The notes: a model not told the origin generated them from the sequence alone. Shown: positions 42,615-62,384, numbered from the stretch's first letter. The stretch is 64,000 bases of DNA from a virus (IMGVR_UViG_3300032323_001417:37665-101664); one strand, 5' to 3'. Program-made: numbers and translations.

Positions 42615-43628
42615 ATGAGTAAAAGAGTTCTTTTAACAGGTGCAAGTGGTTTTGTTGGAAGCCATGTGCTTAGACACTTGCTGGTAAATACAGATTGGTT
42701 TATAGTTTGTCCAACAACATTTACACACAAAGGTTTAACAGATAGAATTAATGTTGCATGTGACGACTTCCCCGATGCTTACAAGCGTATTAAAGTAATT
42801 AAGACAGACCTTACTGCTCCAATTTCTCCAGTAACATCCCATGCGTTTGGTGAAATTGATTATGTGATTAACGTAGCAAGTGAAAGTCATGTTGATAGAA
42901 GCATTGAAGAGCCAACTCCATTTATTCTAAATAACGTTTCTTTAATTTGTAATATACTTGACTGGGCAAGAGTTGCAAAGCCAGAAAAATTTTTGCATAT
43001 TTCAACTGATGAGGTTTACGGTCCAGCTCCAAAGGGACATGCCCATAAAGAGTGGGTAGATCAGTACTTCCCAAGTAACCCATACTCTGCTTCTAAGGCA
43101 GCACAAGAAAGTATTGCGTTTTCATATTGGAGAACTTATGGAGTTCCAATTGCAATTACAAATACCATGAATATTATTGGTGAGACTCAGGACACTGAAA
43201 AGTTTATGCCAATGGTAATTAAAAAAGTTCTTAATGGAGAAACCATGAAGATCCATGCATCATCAGAAGGTGAGATTGGAAGTCGTTTTTACTTACATGC
43301 TAGAAATCAGGCAGACGGTCTTTTGCATGTTCTTAAGCAACATTTCCCAGCTTATGGAGAATCTGATGTACCAGCAAAGTTTCACATTGTTGGCGAAAGA
43401 GAAGTAGACAACCTAGAAATGGCTCAAATGATTGCCTCAGCAGTTGGAAAGCCATTGCGTTATGAGTTAGAAGATTTCCATTCATCACGACCAGGGCATG
43501 ACTTACGTTATGCTTTAGACGGAAAAAAGATTGCTGACACTGGCTGGGTATCCCCAATGCCACTAGAAGAGTCAATTAGAAAAACTGTTGAATGGACTTT
43601 AAGCCATCCAGAATGGCTAAGTTTGTGA
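42615..43628 (+). CDS. rmlB: dTDP-glucose 4,6-dehydratase-like NAD-dependent epimerase/dehydratase
   Basis: TGASGFVG, ASESHVDRSI, STDEVYG, YSASK, RPGHDLRY. Confidence 0.88.
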   Translation: MSKRVLLTGASGFVGSHVLRHLLVNTDWFIVCPTTFTHKGLTDRINVACDDFPDAYKRIKVIKTDLTAPISPVTSHAFGEIDYVINVASESHVDRSIEEPTPFILNNVSLICNILDWARVAKPEKFLHISTDEVYGPAPKGHAHKEWVDQYFPSNPYSASKAAQESIAFSYWRTYGVPIAITNTMNIIGETQDTEKFMPMVIKKVLNGETMKIHASSEGEIGSRFYLHARNQADGLLHVLKQHFPAYGESDVPAKFHIVGEREVDNLEMAQMIASAVGKPLRYELEDFHSSRPGHDLRYALDGKKIADTGWVSPMPLEESIRKTVEWTLSHPEWLSL

Positions 43629-44656
43629 AAGAATATTTAGCAAATAATTATATTTGTTTTGACGATATCCTTATGGTTCCACAATACTCAGAAGTTGTGA
43701 GCAGATCTCTTGTAGATCTAAAGATGCATATTGGTGGAAGTTCTTGGCTAGACTTTCCAGTAATTGCATCACCTATGGATACTGTTTGTGAAAAAGATAT
43801 GGCAATTGCAATTGCTGAATCTGGTGGTATTGGAATTATTCATAGATTTATGTCAGCAAAAAAGCAAATAAAAATGGTTGAAGAAGTTCATAGCCATAAT
43901 GATCTTGGACTTCCTGTTGGTGCAGCATTGTCAACTACTTTTGTTGAAGAGCATGTTGATAAGTTAATTAAATCAGGAGCATCAATGCTTTTAATTGATA
44001 CTGCTAATGGTCATAGTAAAATGGCAATTGATGCAGTTGTAAGATTAAAAAATATTGTAGGAGATAGTGTTCATATTATGGCTGGCAATGTTGCAACAAT
44101 AGAGGGGTATATTGCTTTAGATGTTGCAGGTGCTGATTCTATCAGAGTTGGTATTGGTGGCGGTAGCATGTGTACCACGAGACTCGTATCTGGTCATGGT
44201 ATTCCAACACTATCTTCAATTATAAACGTGCGAGAAGCAAAAGATAAGTTTGGCTTAAAGGCTGGAATTGTTGCAGATGGTGGAATTAGAAATACTGGAG
44301 ACATAATTAAAGCATTCGCAGCAGGAGCAGATTCCGTAATGCTTGGATCAATGTTGGCTGGCACTGACGAATCTCCAGGGTCTTTACATTTTAAAGGTGA
44401 TAAAAAATTTAAAGCATTTAGAGGAATGGCTAGTAAAGAAGCTAATAAAGATAAAGATATTGCAGTTGCAGAAGGAGTCTCTACAATGATTCCATACAAG
44501 GGATCTGTGAAAGATATTTTTAAAGATATTAAAGGTGGTATTGGAAGTGGATGCTCTTATACTGGAGTAGACTTTCTTTGTAATTTATATCAAGAATCCA
44601 TGTACACAAGGGTGTCACCATTAACTGTAAAGGAGTCGTTGCCTCATGGAAGATAA
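43625..44656 (+). CDS. guaB: IMP dehydrogenase/GMP reductase family protein lacking CBS domains
   Basis: [40 protein letters not shown]; GTGA overlap suggests start at 43625. Confidence 0.85.
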
Positions 44657-47601: not shown

Positions 47602-47869
47602 TGAAAAAGCTTTATGCCTTAATATGGATACAAATCTTTTCTTTGATCAATATGAAGAAAATCCAGAAGTTTCAAAAAAAGTAGATCTCTTGTGTATAAA
47701 GTGTCCAGCACAAAGACAGTGCTTAGCATATGGCGTAAGTAATGCTGAGTGGGGTGTTTGGGGTGGCGTTTATTTAGAGGGCGGAAAAATATCTAAAGAA
47801 TTTAATAGTCATAAAGAAAAAACTGACTGGTTTAGTGTTTGGTCTGGAATCACTATGGAGACTAAGTAA
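47588..47869 (+). CDS. whiB: WhiB family transcription factor
   Basis: C...FF...CIKCP...CL...WGVWGG. Confidence 0.9.
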   Translation: MYKFDEKALCLNMDTNLFFDQYEENPEVSKKVDLLCIKCPAQRQCLAYGVSNAEWGVWGGVYLEGGKISKEFNSHKEKTDWFSVWSGITMETK

Positions 47870-50359: not shown

Positions 50360-50600
50360 AGAAATAAAAAAAGATAAAAATATTATTTATAAAGAAGTAA
50401 AAGATGATAGAACAATAGTTTATGAAAGTAAAATGTATACTGTAGATGAATTTGTATCCAAGTATTCCCACGCACTAGCCTCTTACTTACTTAGTAGGCA
50501 GCTTGGAGACAAGAGTAAAAAGTCTCACATTGTTGATCTTGCGGTAGAAAATGCTTCTTTTGCAGAATCCCTTTATATTGGAATGGATAGTTTTAGTTGA
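50349..50600 (+). CDS. Hypothetical protein
   Basis: Overlapping ORF. Confidence 0.5.
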   Translation: MKNKEIKKDKNIIYKEVKDDRTIVYESKMYTVDEFVSKYSHALASYLLSRQLGDKSKKSHIVDLAVENASFAESLYIGMDSFS

Positions 50601-50743
50601 TGTTTTTAACAAAAATGATTAAGTTTGCAGAAAAAATTGGCATGGATGTAGATGAACTTATGGAAATGACGGTTCTAGATGCCATAATGAAAATAGAAGA
50701 AACTAGAGACATGTGGGCAGATTTAAGAAAAGAAATCGGATAG
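50600..50743 (+). CDS. Hypothetical protein (47 aa, not in ORF track)
   Basis: TGATG coupling; MFLTKMIKFAEKIGMDVDELMEM. Confidence 0.5.
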   Translation: MFLTKMIKFAEKIGMDVDELMEMTVLDAIMKIEETRDMWADLRKEIG

Positions 50744-50764
50744 TCTTTAAGGTATAATTAAATA

Positions 50765-51700
50765 GTGAGTTCTCTAATAGATATAAAAGTAGTTGGTTGT
50801 GGTGGCGGTGGAATAAACGCTGTAGATAGCATGATCTTGTCTGGACTATCTGGAGTTGAATTTATTGCAGTCAATACTGACGTTCAAGCATTAATGCCAA
50901 GTTTGGCAGATGTTAAAATTGATATTGGAAGAGATAGAACTGGTGGTCTTGGTGCTGGAGCAGATCCAAATATTGGAAGACTTTCAGCAAAAGATAGCAT
51001 AAATGAAATTTCTGAAGTTGTTACAGGAGCAGATGTTGTTTTTGTTACTGCTGGAATGGGGGGCGGAACTGGAACTGGGTCTGCACCGATTGTTGCCAAC
51101 TGTGCTAAAAAGGCTGGAGCCCTCACTGTAGGCGTTGTAACTACCCCATTTGGGTTTGAGGGCAAGAAGCGTATGAATAATGCCTTAGAGGGAATTAATA
51201 ATTTTAGTAAGGAAGTTGACACACTAATTGTTATTCCAAATGAGAATCTTATTTCTATGCTTGATCCAGATATTTCTATGGAAGAAGCCTTTAAAGAAGC
51301 TGACGATGTTTTATTAAAAGCTGTAGCAGGAGTGTCAGATTTAATTACAACCCCTGGTCAAATCAACATTGACTTTGCAGATATAAAAAGAGTTATGAAA
51401 AATGCTGGAGCAGCCTTTATGGGGATTGGGTATGCAGATGGCGAGGATCGTGCAGATGTTGCAGGTAATAAAGCAATAACAAGTCCAATTTTAGACGTAA
51501 ATCTTAATGGTGCAACTGGAGTTTTAATTTCAATTGCGTCATCTGGACAAATTAAAATGCAAGAAGTTAATAAGATCGCATCACTTGTTTCTGAAAAAGC
51601 TCATGAAGACGCTGACATTATATTTGGAACAGTCTTGGATGAAGATCTTGAGGATGGTATTTTAGTAACTGTTATAGCGACAGGCTTTATAAATGAATGA
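50765..51700 (+). CDS. ftsZ: FtsZ, GTPase core only (no C-terminal linker or conserved peptide)
   Basis: IKVVGCGGGG, NTD.QAL, GLGAGADP, GMGGGTGTG, PFGFEG, INIDFAD, VTVIATGF then stop; TATAAT 6 nt before the GTG. Confidence 0.95.
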   Translation: MSSLIDIKVVGCGGGGINAVDSMILSGLSGVEFIAVNTDVQALMPSLADVKIDIGRDRTGGLGAGADPNIGRLSAKDSINEISEVVTGADVVFVTAGMGGGTGTGSAPIVANCAKKAGALTVGVVTTPFGFEGKKRMNNALEGINNFSKEVDTLIVIPNENLISMLDPDISMEEAFKEADDVLLKAVAGVSDLITTPGQINIDFADIKRVMKNAGAAFMGIGYADGEDRADVAGNKAITSPILDVNLNGATGVLISIASSGQIKMQEVNKIASLVSEKAHEDADIIFGTVLDEDLEDGILVTVIATGFINE

Positions 51701-52340
51701 CATTCAGTGGACCTTTGGAATCATAACTGTATATGAAGATAAGCAAAGGCTTCAAGAGATTATAGAGAGCATTCGTAATCTTAATATTCCAGAGTATGAA
51801 ATATTATTTGTTGGTGGTGGAGATAGCTCTGGCATTGATGGAGAAGATGTTAGAAAGATTGATTTTGATGAATCAGTTAAAGAAAGATGGATTACAAGAA
51901 AAAAGAATATACTTGTAAAAGAAGCTAAATATGACAATATAGTTTTAATGCATGACTATCATATCTTTGATAAAGACTGGTACAAAAACTTTGTTGAGTT
52001 TGGAACTGATTGGGAAATTTGTTCTTGCCCTCAATACTTAATTACTGGATCAAGAAATCCTATGGATTGGTCTCTTTGGGATAAGCCAGGTCATGGTAGA
52101 GCCTGGTCTTTAAACTATGATGACTGGTCTCAAACTCAGCACATGTATATCTCTGGTGGATTCTTTATGGTCAAGCGTCATGTCATGATTGAAGAACCAC
52201 TTGATGAAAGTCGTGGATGGAACGAAGAAGAAGATGTTGAATGGTCTTATAGGGTAAGAGATAAATATGTTATGAAGTGCAATGGTAAAAGTATTGTTAG
52301 ACATAACAAGTGGCATAGACATGCAGGTCCACAAATATGA
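51693..52340 (+). CDS. Glycosyltransferase family 2-like protein
   Basis: TFGIIT, KKNILVKEAKYDNIVLMHDY, ISGGFF, EEDVEWS.R. Confidence 0.75.
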   Translation: MNDIQWTFGIITVYEDKQRLQEIIESIRNLNIPEYEILFVGGGDSSGIDGEDVRKIDFDESVKERWITRKKNILVKEAKYDNIVLMHDYHIFDKDWYKNFVEFGTDWEICSCPQYLITGSRNPMDWSLWDKPGHGRAWSLNYDDWSQTQHMYISGGFFMVKRHVMIEEPLDESRGWNEEEDVEWSYRVRDKYVMKCNGKSIVRHNKWHRHAGPQI

Positions 52341-53710
52341 GTAATAAGTTAGTTATATTTGATTTAGATGGTGTGCTAATTGATTCAAAAGATTTACACT
52401 ACAAAGCTCTTAACAATGCATTAGAAAAAGTTGATCCTAAATATAAAATATCATATCAAGAGCATCTGTCAAAATATGATGGTTTAAATACTAAGAAAAA
52501 ACTTTCTATGCTTACTCAAGAAAAAGGGCTGCCACAAGACTCTCATAATAAAGTATGGAAAGATAAGCAAGAAGAAACTTTCTTAATGCTTGAAAATCTT
52601 CCAGTAAATACTAAAGCTATAAATATTATGATGTATCTAAAATCTGAAGGTTGGAAAATTGCCATAGCATCTAATAGTATTAGAGAGACTATTATAAAGT
52701 CTTTGCATGGAATCCAGGTGCTTCATTTAGTAGATTACATTGTTAGCAATGAGGATGTTTGGCATCCAAAGCCACACCCAGAAATGTACTGGAAGTGCAT
52801 GGTGGCATTAGATGCATTTCCAAAAGATACAATAATTATAGAAGACTCTCACATTGGGAGGCAAGGAGCTTTAAATTCTGGAGCAAACCTGTACCCAGTT
52901 AAAGATTCCTATGATCTTAATGATACAATATTCATAGAGTTTATAGAAAAATTTGAAAAGAAAGAGAGAACTGGACAAGTGCCTTGGAAAAATAAAGAGA
53001 TGAATGTCCTTATACCTATGGCTGGTGCAGGTTCAAGATTTTCACAGGCAGGTTATACATTTCCAAAGCCATTGATTGAAGTTCATGGTAAGCCAATGAT
53101 CCAGGTAATTGTTGAAAATCTTAACATTGATGCACACTATATCTTCTTAGTACAAAAAGATCATTATGAAAAATATAATCTTAAGCAACTTCTTAACCTT
53201 ATTGCTCCAGACTGCGACATAGTTATTGTTGATGGAATGACTGAGGGTGCTGCTTGTACAACCTTACTTGCTCAAGAGCTTATCAATAACGAAAAGCCAC
53301 TTCTAATGGCTAACTCTGATCAGTATGTGGAATGGGACTCCAACGAAGCACTGTATGAGTTTGGTGCTAGCAATATAGACGGTGGAATACTTTCGTTTAA
53401 AGCAACTCATCCAAAGTGGTCTTTTGCAAAAGTTGGGGAAGATGGTTTTGTTTCAGAGGTAGCAGAAAAGAGTCCAATTTCTGATAATGCAACAGTTGGT
53501 ATATACTACTGGAAACACGGGTCTGATTACGTTAAGTATGCAAATCAAATGATTGATAAAAACATTAGAACTAATAATGAATTTTATGTTTGCCCAGTGT
53601 TTAATGAAGCCATACAAGATGGGAAAAAAGTTAGGTTAAAAATGATTGATAAGATGTGGGGAATTGGAACCCCTGAAGATTTAAATTACTTTCTGGAGAA
53701 TAATAAATGA
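52337..53710 (+). CDS. HAD phosphatase fused to a BcbE-like nucleotidyltransferase/GT-A domain
   Basis: FDLDGVL, KPHP, IEDS..G; then IPMAGAGSRF..PKPLI, NSDQ, GTPEDL. Confidence 0.85.
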   Translation: MSNKLVIFDLDGVLIDSKDLHYKALNNALEKVDPKYKISYQEHLSKYDGLNTKKKLSMLTQEKGLPQDSHNKVWKDKQEETFLMLENLPVNTKAINIMMYLKSEGWKIAIASNSIRETIIKSLHGIQVLHLVDYIVSNEDVWHPKPHPEMYWKCMVALDAFPKDTIIIEDSHIGRQGALNSGANLYPVKDSYDLNDTIFIEFIEKFEKKERTGQVPWKNKEMNVLIPMAGAGSRFSQAGYTFPKPLIEVHGKPMIQVIVENLNIDAHYIFLVQKDHYEKYNLKQLLNLIAPDCDIVIVDGMTEGAACTTLLAQELINNEKPLLMANSDQYVEWDSNEALYEFGASNIDGGILSFKATHPKWSFAKVGEDGFVSEVAEKSPISDNATVGIYYWKHGSDYVKYANQMIDKNIRTNNEFYVCPVFNEAIQDGKKVRLKMIDKMWGIGTPEDLNYFLENNK

Positions 53711-54306
53711 AAACTATTGTTGAAGTAGGGGCAAACTATGGTCACGATACTGCAAGGTTTGTTCAAGATAAAAATAACAATGTATGGGCTTTTGAACCAA
53801 CTCCAGAATTAGTTGAACATTTAAATGATAAATTTAAAAATGATAGTAACTTTAATCTTATAGATAAAGCTGTTGATATTGAAGAGGGAGAAAAAATATT
53901 TAATATAGCAGGTGGTGGAGACTGGGGATGTTCTTCACTTTACGAATTTGCTCCAGATATACATGAGAAATGGGAAGGTAGACCAGATTTCAATACTACT
54001 CATAAGGTTACTGTGCAAACAATAAGACTTGATTCTTTTATTGATGAAAACAATATTGACTCAATTGATTACTTGTGGGTTGATGCTCAGGGAAATGACT
54101 TCAGAGTTTTAAAAAGTCTTGGGGAAAAAATTTCAATTGTAAAAGAAGGAAAGTGTGAAGGAGCTTACACAGTGGACCTATATGTTAATACTGAAAATAA
54201 TGTAAGTGACATATGTGAATGGTTGACAAGTAAAGGATTTGAGTGTAAAATAGTTCCAGACAATGTTGGCAAAGAAGCAGATGTTCATTTTAGGAGAGTA
54301 ACATGA
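53707..54306 (+). CDS. FkbM-family SAM methyltransferase
   Basis: VEVGANYG, AFEP, IRLD, IDYLWVDAQG.D..VL. Confidence 0.85.
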   Translation: MKTIVEVGANYGHDTARFVQDKNNNVWAFEPTPELVEHLNDKFKNDSNFNLIDKAVDIEEGEKIFNIAGGGDWGCSSLYEFAPDIHEKWEGRPDFNTTHKVTVQTIRLDSFIDENNIDSIDYLWVDAQGNDFRVLKSLGEKISIVKEGKCEGAYTVDLYVNTENNVSDICEWLTSKGFECKIVPDNVGKEADVHFRRVT

Positions 54307-54764
54307 TTTATATATCCCACCGTGGAAATTTAACTGGAAAGCATCATGAGCTTGAAAATAGTCCTGTTTATATTTATCAAGCTATAGATAGAGGTTTTGA
54401 TGTAGAAGTAGATCTTCGTCACAAAGATGGACAGATATTTTTAGGTCATGAAAAACCACAGTATTTAATAGATGATAATTTTATTGATGACTGTAGAGAA
54501 AGTTTGTGGGTTCACTGCAAAGATAAAGAGTCTTTAAAGTACGCTCTTGATGAAAACTTGAACTGTTTTTTTCACAAGGCAGACGACTATACTTTAACTA
54601 GCAAGGGATATGTTTGGGCATTTCCAGGAGTTGCTAAAGCAAACTCAAACACAATTGCAGTTCTCCCAGAACTATTTAGAACTGTAGAAGAAATGAAAGA
54701 TTTAGACTATCATGGCTACTGCTCTGATGTGATTGAATATATAAGAAGTAGTCACAATGTTTAA
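54303..54764 (+). CDS. Glycerophosphodiester phosphodiesterase-like (PLC-like) protein
   Basis: ISHRG..EN, DVEVD, LGH, WVHCK, CSD. Confidence 0.7.
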   Translation: MIYISHRGNLTGKHHELENSPVYIYQAIDRGFDVEVDLRHKDGQIFLGHEKPQYLIDDNFIDDCRESLWVHCKDKESLKYALDENLNCFFHKADDYTLTSKGYVWAFPGVAKANSNTIAVLPELFRTVEEMKDLDYHGYCSDVIEYIRSSHNV

Positions 54765-55554
54765 AGAGATAGATTATAACAAACACTTTGTTATTGGTAC
54801 ACCGCTTGTAGGATGGAAAGCAGACATGGGTGAAGAAATGTCTTGGCTGGAAAACTCAAAACAAATAATTGAAAAATTCCCGAATGCAAAATTCTTCACT
54901 GCTCTAGAACTTGACAGCAGAGGCTTAGAGCCTTTTCAAAGAGTTCTAGAAAGCTTAAAGCAAATTAATGGAGACTTCTGGACATATACAATAAACGATA
55001 TGGAAAGCAGGGTAACCTCAGGAAATAGATGGATAAGAATTGAAACTGGTAGAAATTTAATTAGAGAGTTCGCACAAAGAGTTCGTGTAACTTCTGGACA
55101 TCACTGGGGAGAGGATTGTACAGAAGAAAATTTTGGAGTCATAAATTATGATGCAATCTTGTATGTTGATTCAGACATAGTAGTAACTGCAGAACTTATT
55201 GAGAAATTGTTTGAAGTTGATCATCCAATTGTCAGTGCAGATGTTCCAGCGTATGGACTAACAGGAAAGGTTGTTTCGGATAATCCAAGAATTGAAGAGC
55301 ACTGGAATACTGCAGGGATGCTTTTAGTAAACTCTCCTGCATTTTATGACCTTCCCTGGTATCATAATTCATATCTTAATTTAAGTGATGATCCAACATT
55401 CCAGTCAATGGCTGAAAGATTGCACAGAAGAGTTGGTGCTGAAGTGTTTGAAGATACATATGGTATGACTTGGGTAAGAAAAGATATAAAGGCAGATCAT
55501 AAAGGTCAGCTTCTTGCCGTTGAAAATAGAAGAATTCCTCCTAGAGATCTATAG
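54757..55554 (+). CDS. Putative GT-A fold glycosyltransferase
   Basis: GRNLIRE, ILYVDSD (DxD), TAGMLLV, SDDP. Confidence 0.65.
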   Translation: MFKEIDYNKHFVIGTPLVGWKADMGEEMSWLENSKQIIEKFPNAKFFTALELDSRGLEPFQRVLESLKQINGDFWTYTINDMESRVTSGNRWIRIETGRNLIREFAQRVRVTSGHHWGEDCTEENFGVINYDAILYVDSDIVVTAELIEKLFEVDHPIVSADVPAYGLTGKVVSDNPRIEEHWNTAGMLLVNSPAFYDLPWYHNSYLNLSDDPTFQSMAERLHRRVGAEVFEDTYGMTWVRKDIKADHKGQLLAVENRRIPPRDL

Positions 55555-60334: not shown

Positions 60335-60407
60335 TCCCCAATAGCTCAATCGGCAGAGCGTCAAACTGTTAATTTGAATGTTCCTAGTTCAAGTCTAGGT
60401 TGGGGAG
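60335..60407 (+). tRNA. tRNA-Asn (GTT)
   Basis: Cloverleaf: TCCCCAA/TTGGGGA acceptor, TCAAA-CTGTTAA-TTTGA anticodon arm, TTCAAGT T-loop; CCA not encoded. Confidence 0.9.
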
Positions 60408-60411
60408 CAAG

Positions 60412-60484
60412 CCCCGATTAGCTCAGTGGATAGAGCGATAGGTTTCTACCCTACAGGTCAGGAGTTCGAATCTCTTATCGGGGA
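60412..60484 (+). tRNA. tRNA-Arg (TCT)
   Basis: CCCCGAT/ATCGGGG acceptor, TAGG-TTTCTAC-CCTA anticodon arm, TTCGAAT T-loop. Confidence 0.88.
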
Positions 60485-60513
60485 CTCAAAAATAGATATA
60501 TAATAGAATAACT

Positions 60514-62307: not shown

Positions 62308-62384
62308 TGGTGGGGAGTGTGGGACTTGAACCCACGACTGGCAGATTATGAGTCTGCTGCTCTGACCAACTGAGCTAACCCCCC
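62308..62384 (-). tRNA. tRNA-CAT, probably Ile2 (otherwise elongator Met)
   Basis: GGGGGGT/ACTCCCC acceptor, GCAGA-CTCATAA-TCTGC anticodon arm, encoded CCA; lacks initiator features. Confidence 0.88.

What the first reader, a model, noticed from the sequence alone, without database searches (positions are those of the whole stretch)
50765..51700. Phage-encoded FtsZ lacking the C-terminal linker and conserved peptide
Seen: a complete GTPase core with an intact GGGTGTG signature and T7 loop (INIDFAD), ending 3 residues after VIATGF. It has its own leaderless promoter and heads the glycan-gene operon. Known: the C-terminal peptide anchors FtsZ to the membrane via SepF/FtsA, and tail-less FtsZ is dominant-negative for division. 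Phage tubulins (PhuZ/TubZ) are far more divergent than this bacterial-type FtsZ. Inference: it co-polymerises with host FtsZ to block division, or forms an untethered filament for phage use.
Basis: partly seen in the sequence, partly recalled or inferred. Interest (0 to 1): 0.78.

Follow-up and report, generated by a model that had tools for sequence, protein, structure and literature searches.

The report
Tail-less FtsZ gene in an actinophage
A complete 102-kb phage of actinobacteria carries a well-preserved copy of the bacterial cell-division protein FtsZ that lacks the tail used to anchor it to the membrane, most likely to jam the host's division filaments, and I found no paper describing such a phage gene.

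Summary
Window 50765-51700 (+) encodes a 311-aa FtsZ core. It aligns without gaps to M. tuberculosis FtsZ residues 9-312, keeps every GTP-binding and T7 motif, and stops 3 residues after the last strand. It lies in a complete 101,664-bp phage genome with terminal repeats and has phage-like base composition, so it is not a host fragment.

About 75 related viral contigs, down to 65% identity, all carry the same 2-5-residue stub. All 110 cellular FtsZ I extracted have 42-189-residue tails ending in the D-[VI]-P-x-F-[LM]-[KR] peptide. The tail-less phage proteins form one clade on a long stem (about 0.9 substitutions per site), beside but not inside Actinomycetota, and evolve under strong purifying selection (dN/dS about 0.10).

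A conserved GGTATAAT-N6-start element with no Shine-Dalgarno supports the leaderless promoter. The gene overlaps the first gene of a glycan-gene operon.

Fixed phage-specific changes concentrate in the C-terminal subdomain (19/62 sites against 9/107, p = 4e-4).

Best reading (about 0.45): an untethered FtsZ that joins or caps host filaments and blocks division. The function is untested. Natural tail-less FtsZ paralogues in Alphaproteobacteria are harmless, so toxicity is not assured. The scan noted a similar family on other DNA (e1-5354895). I found no published description.

The parts
50600..50743 (+). Upstream 47-aa ORF of unknown function. Its stop lies 21 nt before the ftsZ start.
   Evidence: Read from the sequence. 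Conserved upstream of ftsZ in most relatives. No PHROG hit.
50751..50758 (+). GGTATAAT: a -10 promoter element of host sigma-70/SigA type, 6 nt before the start codon (candidate leaderless promoter)
   Evidence: Invariant in position and sequence in all relatives of 77% identity or more, including five with a different upstream gene. No -35 match and no Shine-Dalgarno. TATAAT-N6/7-start recurs at other long ORFs of the genome.
50765..51700 (+). ftsZ coding sequence: 311 aa, GTG start, TGA stop
50783..51262 (+). N-terminal GTPase (Tubulin/FtsZ) domain, aa 7-166; the nucleotide-binding 'top' face
   Evidence: Pfam PF00091, E 6e-46. 65% identical to the Actinomycetota consensus. Only 9 of 107 conserved sites are changed in both phage clades.
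51059..51079 (+). T4 signature GGGTGTG, aa 99-105
51365..51382 (+). T7 synergy loop N-I-D-F-A-D, aa 201-206. It aligns with E. coli N207, D209 and D212.
   Evidence: Alignment with E. coli K-12 FtsZ and the motif table
51407..51688 (+). FtsZ C-terminal subdomain, aa 215-308; the 'bottom' face. It holds most of the phage-specific fixed changes, including the S9 loop S-S-G-Q-I-K-M (aa 259-265), where Actinomycetota have G-G-S-D-L-G-L.
   Evidence: Pfam PF12327, E 1e-29. 19 of 62 conserved sites are changed in both phage clades, Fisher p = 4e-4 against the N domain.
51689..51700 (+). Three-residue stub I-N-E plus the stop codon, where cellular FtsZ has the linker and the conserved C-terminal peptide
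51693..55554 (+). Five overlapping downstream genes: GT2 glycosyltransferase, HAD phosphatase fused to a nucleotidyltransferase, FkbM methyltransferase, PHROG 34507, and one unknown. The first ATG overlaps the end of ftsZ by 8 nt.
   Evidence: The ftsZ-GT2 overlap is kept even in the 65% clade. An extra stretch of about 600 nt separates them in L099, L100, L112, L113 and L116, and GT2 and the HAD/nucleotidyltransferase gene were not found in L108, L114 and L117.

Best explanation
The gene encodes a phage-adapted FtsZ reduced to its polymerising GTPase core. It is probably transcribed by the host RNA polymerase from a -10-only promoter as a leaderless mRNA, together with cell-envelope glycan genes, from the replication and host-takeover part of the genome. 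The protein keeps everything needed to bind and hydrolyse GTP and to make head-to-tail contacts. It lacks the linker and the C-terminal peptide through which actinobacterial FtsZ is tied to the membrane and divisome (SepF and others). Made in an infected cell alongside host FtsZ, it most likely enters or caps host protofilaments. That would dilute or remove their membrane attachment and disturb treadmilling, so the Z ring fails and the cell stops dividing while the phage replicates. Shown here: gene integrity, missing tail, intact motifs and fold, single origin, purifying selection, promoter conservation and operon context. Inferred: expression timing, polymerisation, contact with host FtsZ and the division block.
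For: The core is intact and the tail is absent. The stub is kept in all of about 75 viral copies across clades only 65% identical to each other. dN/dS has a median of 0.10 and a range of 0.03-0.23 over 371 pairs. All tail-less copies form one clade with support 100. The host phylum is supported by a WhiB gene in the same genome and by the position of the clade next to Actinomycetota. The nucleotide-binding domain stays host-like while the C-terminal subdomain is remodelled. In E. coli, FtsZ with a defective bottom face blocks division at substoichiometric dose, whereas top-face mutants do not (Redick et al. and Du et al., as summarised in 10.1101/2020.02.25.965095). Tail-less natural FtsZ paralogues do co-polymerise with full-length FtsZ and reach the ring through it. 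From my own knowledge: phages commonly block division through FtsZ, for example lambda Kil. T7 Gp0.4 is described as a phage-encoded FtsZ inhibitor in PMC13423816.
Against: There is no experiment and no transcript or protein data. The true host FtsZ is unknown, so interface compatibility cannot be judged. The phage protein is only 53-61% identical to sampled Actinomycetota FtsZ, and peripheral positions on both longitudinal faces have changed (H2-S3 loop, T7 flank, S9 loop), which could equally favour self-assembly. Natural tail-less paralogues are not toxic at native levels. The long stem suggests a changed function, not simple mimicry.
Confidence: 0.45

Rival explanations
1. The protein builds its own untethered filament for a phage purpose, such as organising or positioning replicating DNA or capsids, in the manner of PhuZ/TubZ but made from a true FtsZ. 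It would have little or no mixing with host FtsZ.
For: The long stem (0.9-1.25 substitutions per site) is followed by tight conservation, which fits a new function. Changes fixed in both phage clades occur on both longitudinal faces. They affect the H2-S3 loop and the residue aligned to E. coli L205 next to the T7 loop, regions shown to touch each other across subunits (K51-P203 crosslink, PMC12137876), and also the S9 loop. Residues of the lateral contacts defined in M. tuberculosis FtsZ (PMC6050046) are recharged or made hydrophobic: R229 to D/E, K77 to L, E80 to K, K83 to I/V, E87 to S/K.
Against: No adaptor, centromere or partner gene was recognised next to it; the neighbours have no family hits. 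PhuZ and TubZ need their C-terminal tails for filament contacts or adaptor binding (my own knowledge), and this protein has none. The enrichment of change at lateral sites is weak (p = 0.04 in one clade, not significant in both).
Confidence: 0.2
2. The protein is a benign or modulatory co-polymer partner, like A. tumefaciens FtsZ1 or M. gryphiswaldense FtsZm. It rides on host FtsZ filaments and tunes them, for example cell size or septal wall synthesis alongside the glycan genes, without arresting division.
For: Natural core-only FtsZ paralogues co-polymerise, localise to midcell through the canonical FtsZ and are dispensable and harmless. The gene is translationally coupled to envelope-glycan genes.
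Against: A lytic-type 102-kb phage gains little from keeping division going. The remodelled C-terminal subdomain suggests altered assembly behaviour, not neutral behaviour.
Confidence: 0.12
3. The protein is a decoy or sponge. A soluble FtsZ look-alike would soak up host proteins that bind the FtsZ globular core, such as regulators, proteases or toxins that target FtsZ. Or it would mask FtsZ-dependent sensing by defence systems.
For: At least one defence protein senses a complex of FtsZ with a phage protein (PMC13423816). The core surfaces are partly kept and the tail is dispensable for such binding.
Against: A decoy would not need all catalytic and polymerisation motifs conserved. No defence or anti-defence context was seen beside the gene.
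Confidence: 0.08
4. The gene is an artefact or a relic: a misassembled host fragment, or a decaying truncated pseudogene.
For: None beyond the truncation itself.
Against: The genome is complete with direct terminal repeats. The same gene lies in the same place in about 40 viral contigs. Its GC is 38% against 68% in the nearest cellular genes. dN/dS is 0.10. Length is constant across clades 65% identical to each other. More than 120 protein clusters of 307-314 aa occur on contigs up to 114 kb.
Confidence: 0.01

Closest known systems
Cellular FtsZ of Actinomycetota (for example M. tuberculosis FtsZ; PDB 1RLU, 5ZUE, 6YM9)
   Same: The two-domain fold and all GTP-binding and T7 motifs are the same. 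The alignment over 304 residues has no gaps, at 59-61% identity and TM 0.95-0.97. This phylum holds most of the nearest cellular FtsZ found.
   Different: There is no linker and no C-terminal peptide, and the N-terminal extension is shorter: 6 residues before the first strand against 10-11 (x-x-x-QNYLAV) in Actinomycetota. Of the sites at least 90% conserved in Actinomycetota, 29 are changed in both phage clades, mostly in the C-terminal subdomain. The gene is phage-borne, outside any division and cell-wall (dcw) gene cluster, and AT-rich.
Natural core-only FtsZ paralogues of Alphaproteobacteria (A. tumefaciens FtsZ1/Atu4673, S. meliloti, M. gryphiswaldense FtsZm)
   Same: They have a complete GTPase core with no linker or peptide, and they coexist in one cell with a full-length FtsZ. 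FtsZ1 co-polymerises with that FtsZ and depends on it for localisation.
   Different: Those are chromosomal, non-essential and harmless. This one is viral and belongs to a separate clade near Actinomycetota. It would be made from a replicating phage genome. Kinship with those paralogues was not tested.
Engineered or mutant FtsZ lacking the C-terminal peptide, and bottom-face 'capper' mutants (E. coli L272E and others)
   Same: The core is retained and the tether lost. The asymmetry, with a host-like top face and an altered bottom face, recalls bottom-face mutants that block division at substoichiometric dose.
   Different: Here the S9-loop changes are conservative at the key hydrophobic positions (L to I and L to M at the residues aligned to E. 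coli L270 and L272). A true capping defect is therefore not shown.
Phage tubulins PhuZ and TubZ
   Same: Tubulin/FtsZ-superfamily GTPases encoded by phages.
   Different: They are only distantly related: the PHROG PhuZ hit is E 1.5e-5 over aa 6-212. From my own knowledge, those proteins carry functional C-terminal tails and, for TubZ, adaptor partners. This protein is a true FtsZ with no tail.
Small phage inhibitors of FtsZ (lambda Kil, T7 Gp0.4) and the sporulation peptide MciZ
   Same: The proposed outcome is the same, host division blocked through FtsZ. MciZ-bound subunits cap the growing end.
   Different: Those are short unrelated peptides that bind FtsZ. Here the inhibitor would itself be an FtsZ.

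Membership tests
FtsZ (bacterial cell-division tubulin homologue) | Tubulin/FtsZ GTPase domain plus the FtsZ C-terminal subdomain | tested here: met
   PF00091 E 6e-46 and PF12327 E 1e-29, both far above the curated cut-offs
FtsZ (bacterial cell-division tubulin homologue) | Nucleotide-binding loops T1-T6, including GGGTGTG, and the catalytic T7 loop NxDxxD | tested here: met
   GGGGIN, NTD, GLGAGA, GGGTGTG, PFGFEG, PNE and NIDFAD are all present and conserved in both phage clades
FtsZ (bacterial cell-division tubulin homologue) | FtsZ fold | tested here: met
   AlphaFold model with pLDDT 88.7; TM 0.95-0.97 and rmsd 1.3-1.5 A to M. tuberculosis and B. subtilis FtsZ
FtsZ (bacterial cell-division tubulin homologue) | Disordered C-terminal linker and conserved C-terminal peptide that bind membrane anchors (FtsA, SepF, ZipA) | tested here: not met
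   The protein stops 3 residues after strand S10. All 110 cellular FtsZ compared have 42-189-aa tails ending in D[VI]PxF[LM][KR].
FtsZ (bacterial cell-division tubulin homologue) | Location in a division and cell-wall (dcw) cluster of a cellular genome | tested here: not met
   The gene lies in a complete phage genome between replication genes and glycan genes
FtsZ (bacterial cell-division tubulin homologue) | GTP-dependent polymerisation and GTPase activity | not testable with these tools
   Only motif conservation can be shown
Phage tubulins PhuZ/TubZ | Sequence membership in the PhuZ/TubZ families | tested here: not met
   The only PHROG hit is PhuZ at E 1.5e-5 and 25 bits over the N domain. 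Cellular FtsZ matches at E 1e-108.
Phage tubulins PhuZ/TubZ | C-terminal tail used for filament contacts or adaptor (TubR) binding | tested here: not met
   No tail. A TubR-like partner was not searched for.
Core-only FtsZ paralogues (FtsZ1/FtsZm type) | Complete GTPase core, no linker and no peptide, acting beside a full-length FtsZ | tested here: met
   The architecture is met. Coexistence with host FtsZ during infection is inferred. Phylogenetic kinship to the alphaproteobacterial paralogues was not tested.

The most novel reading that the evidence does not exclude
The phage has turned a true FtsZ into a directional poison. Its nucleotide-binding (top) face stays host-compatible, so it docks on the growing end of host protofilaments. 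Its remodelled C-terminal subdomain (S9 loop and neighbouring surfaces), trimmed N-terminus and missing tail then stop or corrupt further growth. On this reading it arrests host division at substoichiometric dose as a protein-encoded 'bottom capper' derived from the target itself.
Probability: 0.2. Interest if true: 0.8.

Novelty: new variant of a known kind. Interest (0 to 1): 0.66.

Why it matters
Phages are known to encode distant tubulin relatives (PhuZ, TubZ) and small peptides that inhibit FtsZ. I found no description of a true FtsZ in a phage. Seven of my ten full-text searches looked for such a report and found none. PHROGs v4 has no FtsZ family, and no similar gene turned up in 50,697 deposited phage records beyond doubtful, host-like hits. 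This family is widespread: more than 120 protein clusters and about 75 IMG/VR contigs. It is old, with clades only 65% identical to each other, and it is strongly conserved. If it poisons or caps host filaments, it is a natural experiment in what the FtsZ tail and bottom face do. It would also be a ready-made tool for stopping division in actinobacteria, and a clue to how large phages manage very small host cells. If it builds its own filament, it would be a third, independent recruitment of the tubulin superfamily by phages.

Tried and rejected
1. Host-fragment or misassembly reading: rejected.
2. Pseudogene reading: rejected.
3. Recent capture from a sampled host: rejected. The best identity in 401 Actinomycetota genomes is 61%, and genomes of 1.2-1.5 Mb score no better.
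4. The search of 50%-identity representatives did not separate short forms, probably because the phage family falls into clusters represented by long cellular FtsZ.
5. The consensus promoter and terminator scan was uninformative (27 sites against 33 expected) and gave no terminator before ftsZ.
6. Lateral-interface remodelling as a statistical signal is weak: p = 0.04 in clade A and not significant for both clades. I keep it as a lead only.
7. A marker-gene survey to ask whether ftsZ is a core gene gave only three contigs that span both loci. All three have ftsZ, which is too few to generalise.
I did not test the habitat ('lake phage' in earlier notes).
9. A subunit-subunit model with a host FtsZ could not be built with the single-chain fold tool.
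10. The phage G 'FtsZ/tubulin-like GTPase' (10.1101/2024.12.16.628780) is described there as CetZ-like and divergent, so it is not the same thing.

Full report
WHAT IS THERE

Window 50765-51700 (+) is an uninterrupted 311-codon ORF with a GTG start. A stop codon lies two codons upstream in the same frame, so no longer form is possible.

- Pfam finds the Tubulin/FtsZ GTPase domain (aa 7-166, E 6e-46) and the FtsZ C-terminal domain (aa 215-308, E 1e-29).
- Against solved structures, the best matches are M. tuberculosis FtsZ (E about 1e-108). Residues 5-308 align to 9-312 without a single gap.
- An AlphaFold model (pLDDT 88.7, pTM 0.88) superposes on 1RLU, 5ZUE and 2VXY at TM 0.95-0.97. Its last strand is residues 299-306.
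- The T1 (GGGGIN), T2 (NTD), T3 (GLGAGA), T4 (GGGTGTG), T5 (PFGFEG), T6 (PNE) and T7 (NIDFAD) motifs are all present. The T7 residues align with E. coli N207, D209 and D212.
- The protein ends ...VIATGF-I-N-E. This is about the boundary of truncated FtsZ crystal constructs; for example 6YM1 is 313 residues long.

IT IS A PHAGE GENE

- The window is the last 64 kb of a 101,664-bp IMG/VR virus record with direct terminal repeats, estimated 100% complete.
- The gene has 38.4% GC (GC3 20%) against 35.5% for the genome. The nearest cellular ftsZ cores have a median of 68%.
- Upstream lie a Pol III alpha subunit, RecA, a PD-(D/E)XK nuclease, RuvC, an NDP-sugar dehydratase, a GMP reductase/IMPDH-family gene and SSB.
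- A WhiB gene lies at window 47603-47770. The WhiB family rang only in Corynebacterium among 14 control genomes, which supports an actinobacterial host.
- Downstream, the ftsZ stop overlaps the ATG (51693) of a GT2 glycosyltransferase. A HAD phosphatase fused to a nucleotidyltransferase, an FkbM methyltransferase and two unknown genes follow, each overlapping the next.

THE FAMILY

A search of 5.8 billion proteins returned more than 120 clusters at 85-100% identity. All are 307-314 aa long and sit on contigs up to 114 kb.

IMG/VR gave 42 loci of the same family, excluding one tailed outlier (L124). A profile search added about 35 more loci, including further clades at 77% and about 65% identity. 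Every one of these ends 2-5 residues after ATGF.

In contrast, all 110 cellular FtsZ that I extracted carry 42-189 residues after the core and end in D-[VI]-P-x-F-[LM]-[KR] or a close variant. They are mostly Actinomycetota, with some Bacillota, Myxococcota and others. In a sample of 401 Actinomycetota genomes, 397 had a match, the best identity was 61%, and the listed best matches all lay in open frames of 351 aa or more.

Seven viral contigs with FtsZ at 44-53% identity do have tails and fall outside the clade.

EVOLUTION

- In maximum-likelihood trees, all tail-less phage proteins form one clade (SH-aLRT 100). The stem measures 1.25 substitutions per site with clade A alone and 0.89 with the 65% clades added. 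Most internal branches among Actinomycetota are below 0.2.
- The clade sits beside the sampled Actinomycetota with modest support (82), not inside any family. The donor is therefore unresolved.
- Within the close family, dN/dS has a median of 0.10 and a range of 0.03-0.23 over 371 pairs, with a median dS of 0.59.
- The picture is one old acquisition or truncation, a burst of change, then strong constraint.

WHERE THE CHANGES ARE

Of 197 positions at least 90% conserved in Actinomycetota, 29 are changed in the consensus of both phage clades.

They are unevenly spread: 9 of 107 in the N-terminal GTPase domain, 1 of 28 in H7/T7 and 19 of 62 in the C-terminal subdomain (Fisher p = 4e-4).

The densest patch is the S9 loop, where M. 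tuberculosis 263-269 G-G-S-D-L-G-L becomes S-S-G-Q-I-K-M. It aligns with E. coli 266-272, which includes F268 and L272. From my own knowledge, that loop lies on the bottom face. The two key leucines become I and M, so hydrophobicity is kept.

On the top face, the H2-S3 loop (M. tuberculosis 48-51) is changed. So is the residue before the T7 loop (E. coli L205 becomes Q or F). These two regions contact each other between subunits in E. coli (K51-P203 crosslink; residues 42-54 against 198-211; PMC12137876).

Residues of the two lateral contacts seen in M. tuberculosis FtsZ crystals (PMC6050046) are also altered. This excess over background is weak (p = 0.04).
- R229 becomes D/E while its partner D301 is kept.
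- K77 becomes L.
- E80 becomes K.
- K83 becomes I/V.
- E87 becomes S or K.
- E153 becomes K.

The N-terminal extension is 6 residues in this clade and 3-5 in the 65% clades, against 10-11 with a conserved QNYLAV motif in Actinomycetota. The E. coli N-terminal 10 residues act as a built-in disassembly element, and their removal gives longer, bundled, slower filaments. Whether the shorter phage end matters is unknown.

PROMOTER AND LEADERLESS START

GGTATAAT lies at 50751-50758, and the start codon follows after exactly 6 nt.

- Across relatives of 77% identity or more, this octamer and its spacing are invariant while the six bases between vary. This holds in L099, L113, L114, L116 and L122, whose upstream genes are different.
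- AAGG is the only purine run, and it lies 12 nt from the start, too far for a Shine-Dalgarno. By contrast, 49 of 108 crude gene calls in this genome have GGAG/GAGG/AGGA at 4-11 nt.
- TATAAT lies 6 or 7 nt before the start of six ORFs of 100 aa or more and 0-5 nt before none.
- The 65% clades lack this element and start right after the preceding gene.

The leaderless promoter is therefore well supported for this clade, but it is not a feature of the whole family.

FUNCTION

Best reading (about 0.45): the protein is made beside host FtsZ and joins or caps its filaments. Because it cannot be tethered, it disables the Z ring.

In support:
- The assembly machinery is intact.
- The tail loss is universally kept.
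- The top domain stays host-like.
- Tail-less paralogues are known to co-polymerise with full-length FtsZ.
- Bottom-face mutants of E. coli FtsZ block division at substoichiometric dose.

Against:
- Natural core-only paralogues are harmless.
- The host FtsZ is unknown.
- Changes on both longitudinal faces could instead favour a separate phage filament (rival, about 0.2).

A modulatory partner (about 0.12) and a decoy (about 0.08) remain possible. The artefact and pseudogene readings are excluded.

WHAT IS KNOWN

Seven of my ten full-text searches, including the exact phrases 'phage FtsZ', 'viral FtsZ' and 'virus-encoded FtsZ', found no description of a true FtsZ in a phage. Papers on freshwater actinophages (PMC6802176, PMC10202952) do not mention FtsZ. 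PHROGs v4 has no FtsZ family. The 27 hits in deposited phage records are all below 60% identity and lie mostly in unannotated metagenomic or evidently host-contaminated records. The library lacks most subscription journals, so a prior report cannot be excluded.

The scan itself noted a similar tail-less FtsZ family on another genome (e1-5354895). My tests on this genome agree with that note. They add the single-clade tree, the domain asymmetry, the promoter evidence and the comparison with alphaproteobacterial paralogues.

CAVEATS ON SOURCES

- The tool flagged G001, G002 (loci L003, L002), G004 (L154) and G339 (L147) as unpublished, along with eleven other genomes.
- They contribute rows to the identity survey, the tail table and the trees. 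No conclusion rests on them alone.

Noticed in passing
window 47603-47770 (G000:85267-85434): WhiB-family gene (PF02467, E 1.4e-12) in the phage. The family rang only in Corynebacterium among 14 control genomes, which supports an actinobacterial host.
   Followed up: partly
window 30614, 39546, 45008 (+) and 62202 (-); genome 12262, 22119, 34590, 41056: TATAAT or TACAAT lies 6-8 nt before the start codons of several real ORFs, with no Shine-Dalgarno. This looks like a class of leaderless promoters, separate from the TGTCAG-N10-TAnnnT early promoters noted by another report.
   Followed up: partly
window 43592-44656 and 42615-43628: An IMPDH/GMP-reductase-family gene (PF00478, E 8e-98) and an NDP-sugar 4,6-dehydratase-type gene lie in the replication block. 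A guanine-nucleotide enzyme in a phage that also makes a GTPase polymer may be worth a look.
   Followed up: no
L203-L223 (IMG/VR contigs): Further tail-less FtsZ clades at about 65% identity keep the ftsZ-GT2 overlap but lack the GGTATAAT element. Their ftsZ starts a few bases after the preceding gene's stop, so expression control differs between clades.
   Followed up: partly
L099, L100, L112, L113, L116; L108, L114, L117: Five relatives have an extra stretch of about 600 nt between ftsZ and GT2. In three others GT2 and the HAD/nucleotidyltransferase gene were not found, and other DNA follows ftsZ. The link between ftsZ and the glycan genes is therefore frequent but not obligatory.
   Followed up: no
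L224-L230 (IMG/VR contigs): Seven viral-labelled contigs carry FtsZ at 44-53% identity with tails of 24-334 residues. They fall outside the tail-less clade and may be host contamination or separate acquisitions. L230 (34.5 kb) has only a 24-residue tail ending DFRDLFKK.
   Followed up: no
window 50801 (codon 12): Both phage clades have Cys in the G-C-G-G-G-G strand, where cellular FtsZ mostly have Val or Ile. Clade A also replaces the H1 arginine (M. tuberculosis R26, which I take to be S. aureus R29; an R29A mutant structure, 5H5H, appeared) with Ser.
   Followed up: no
window 60335-60485 and 62308-62384: Three tRNA genes: Asn-GTT, Arg-TCT and Met-CAT.
   Followed up: no
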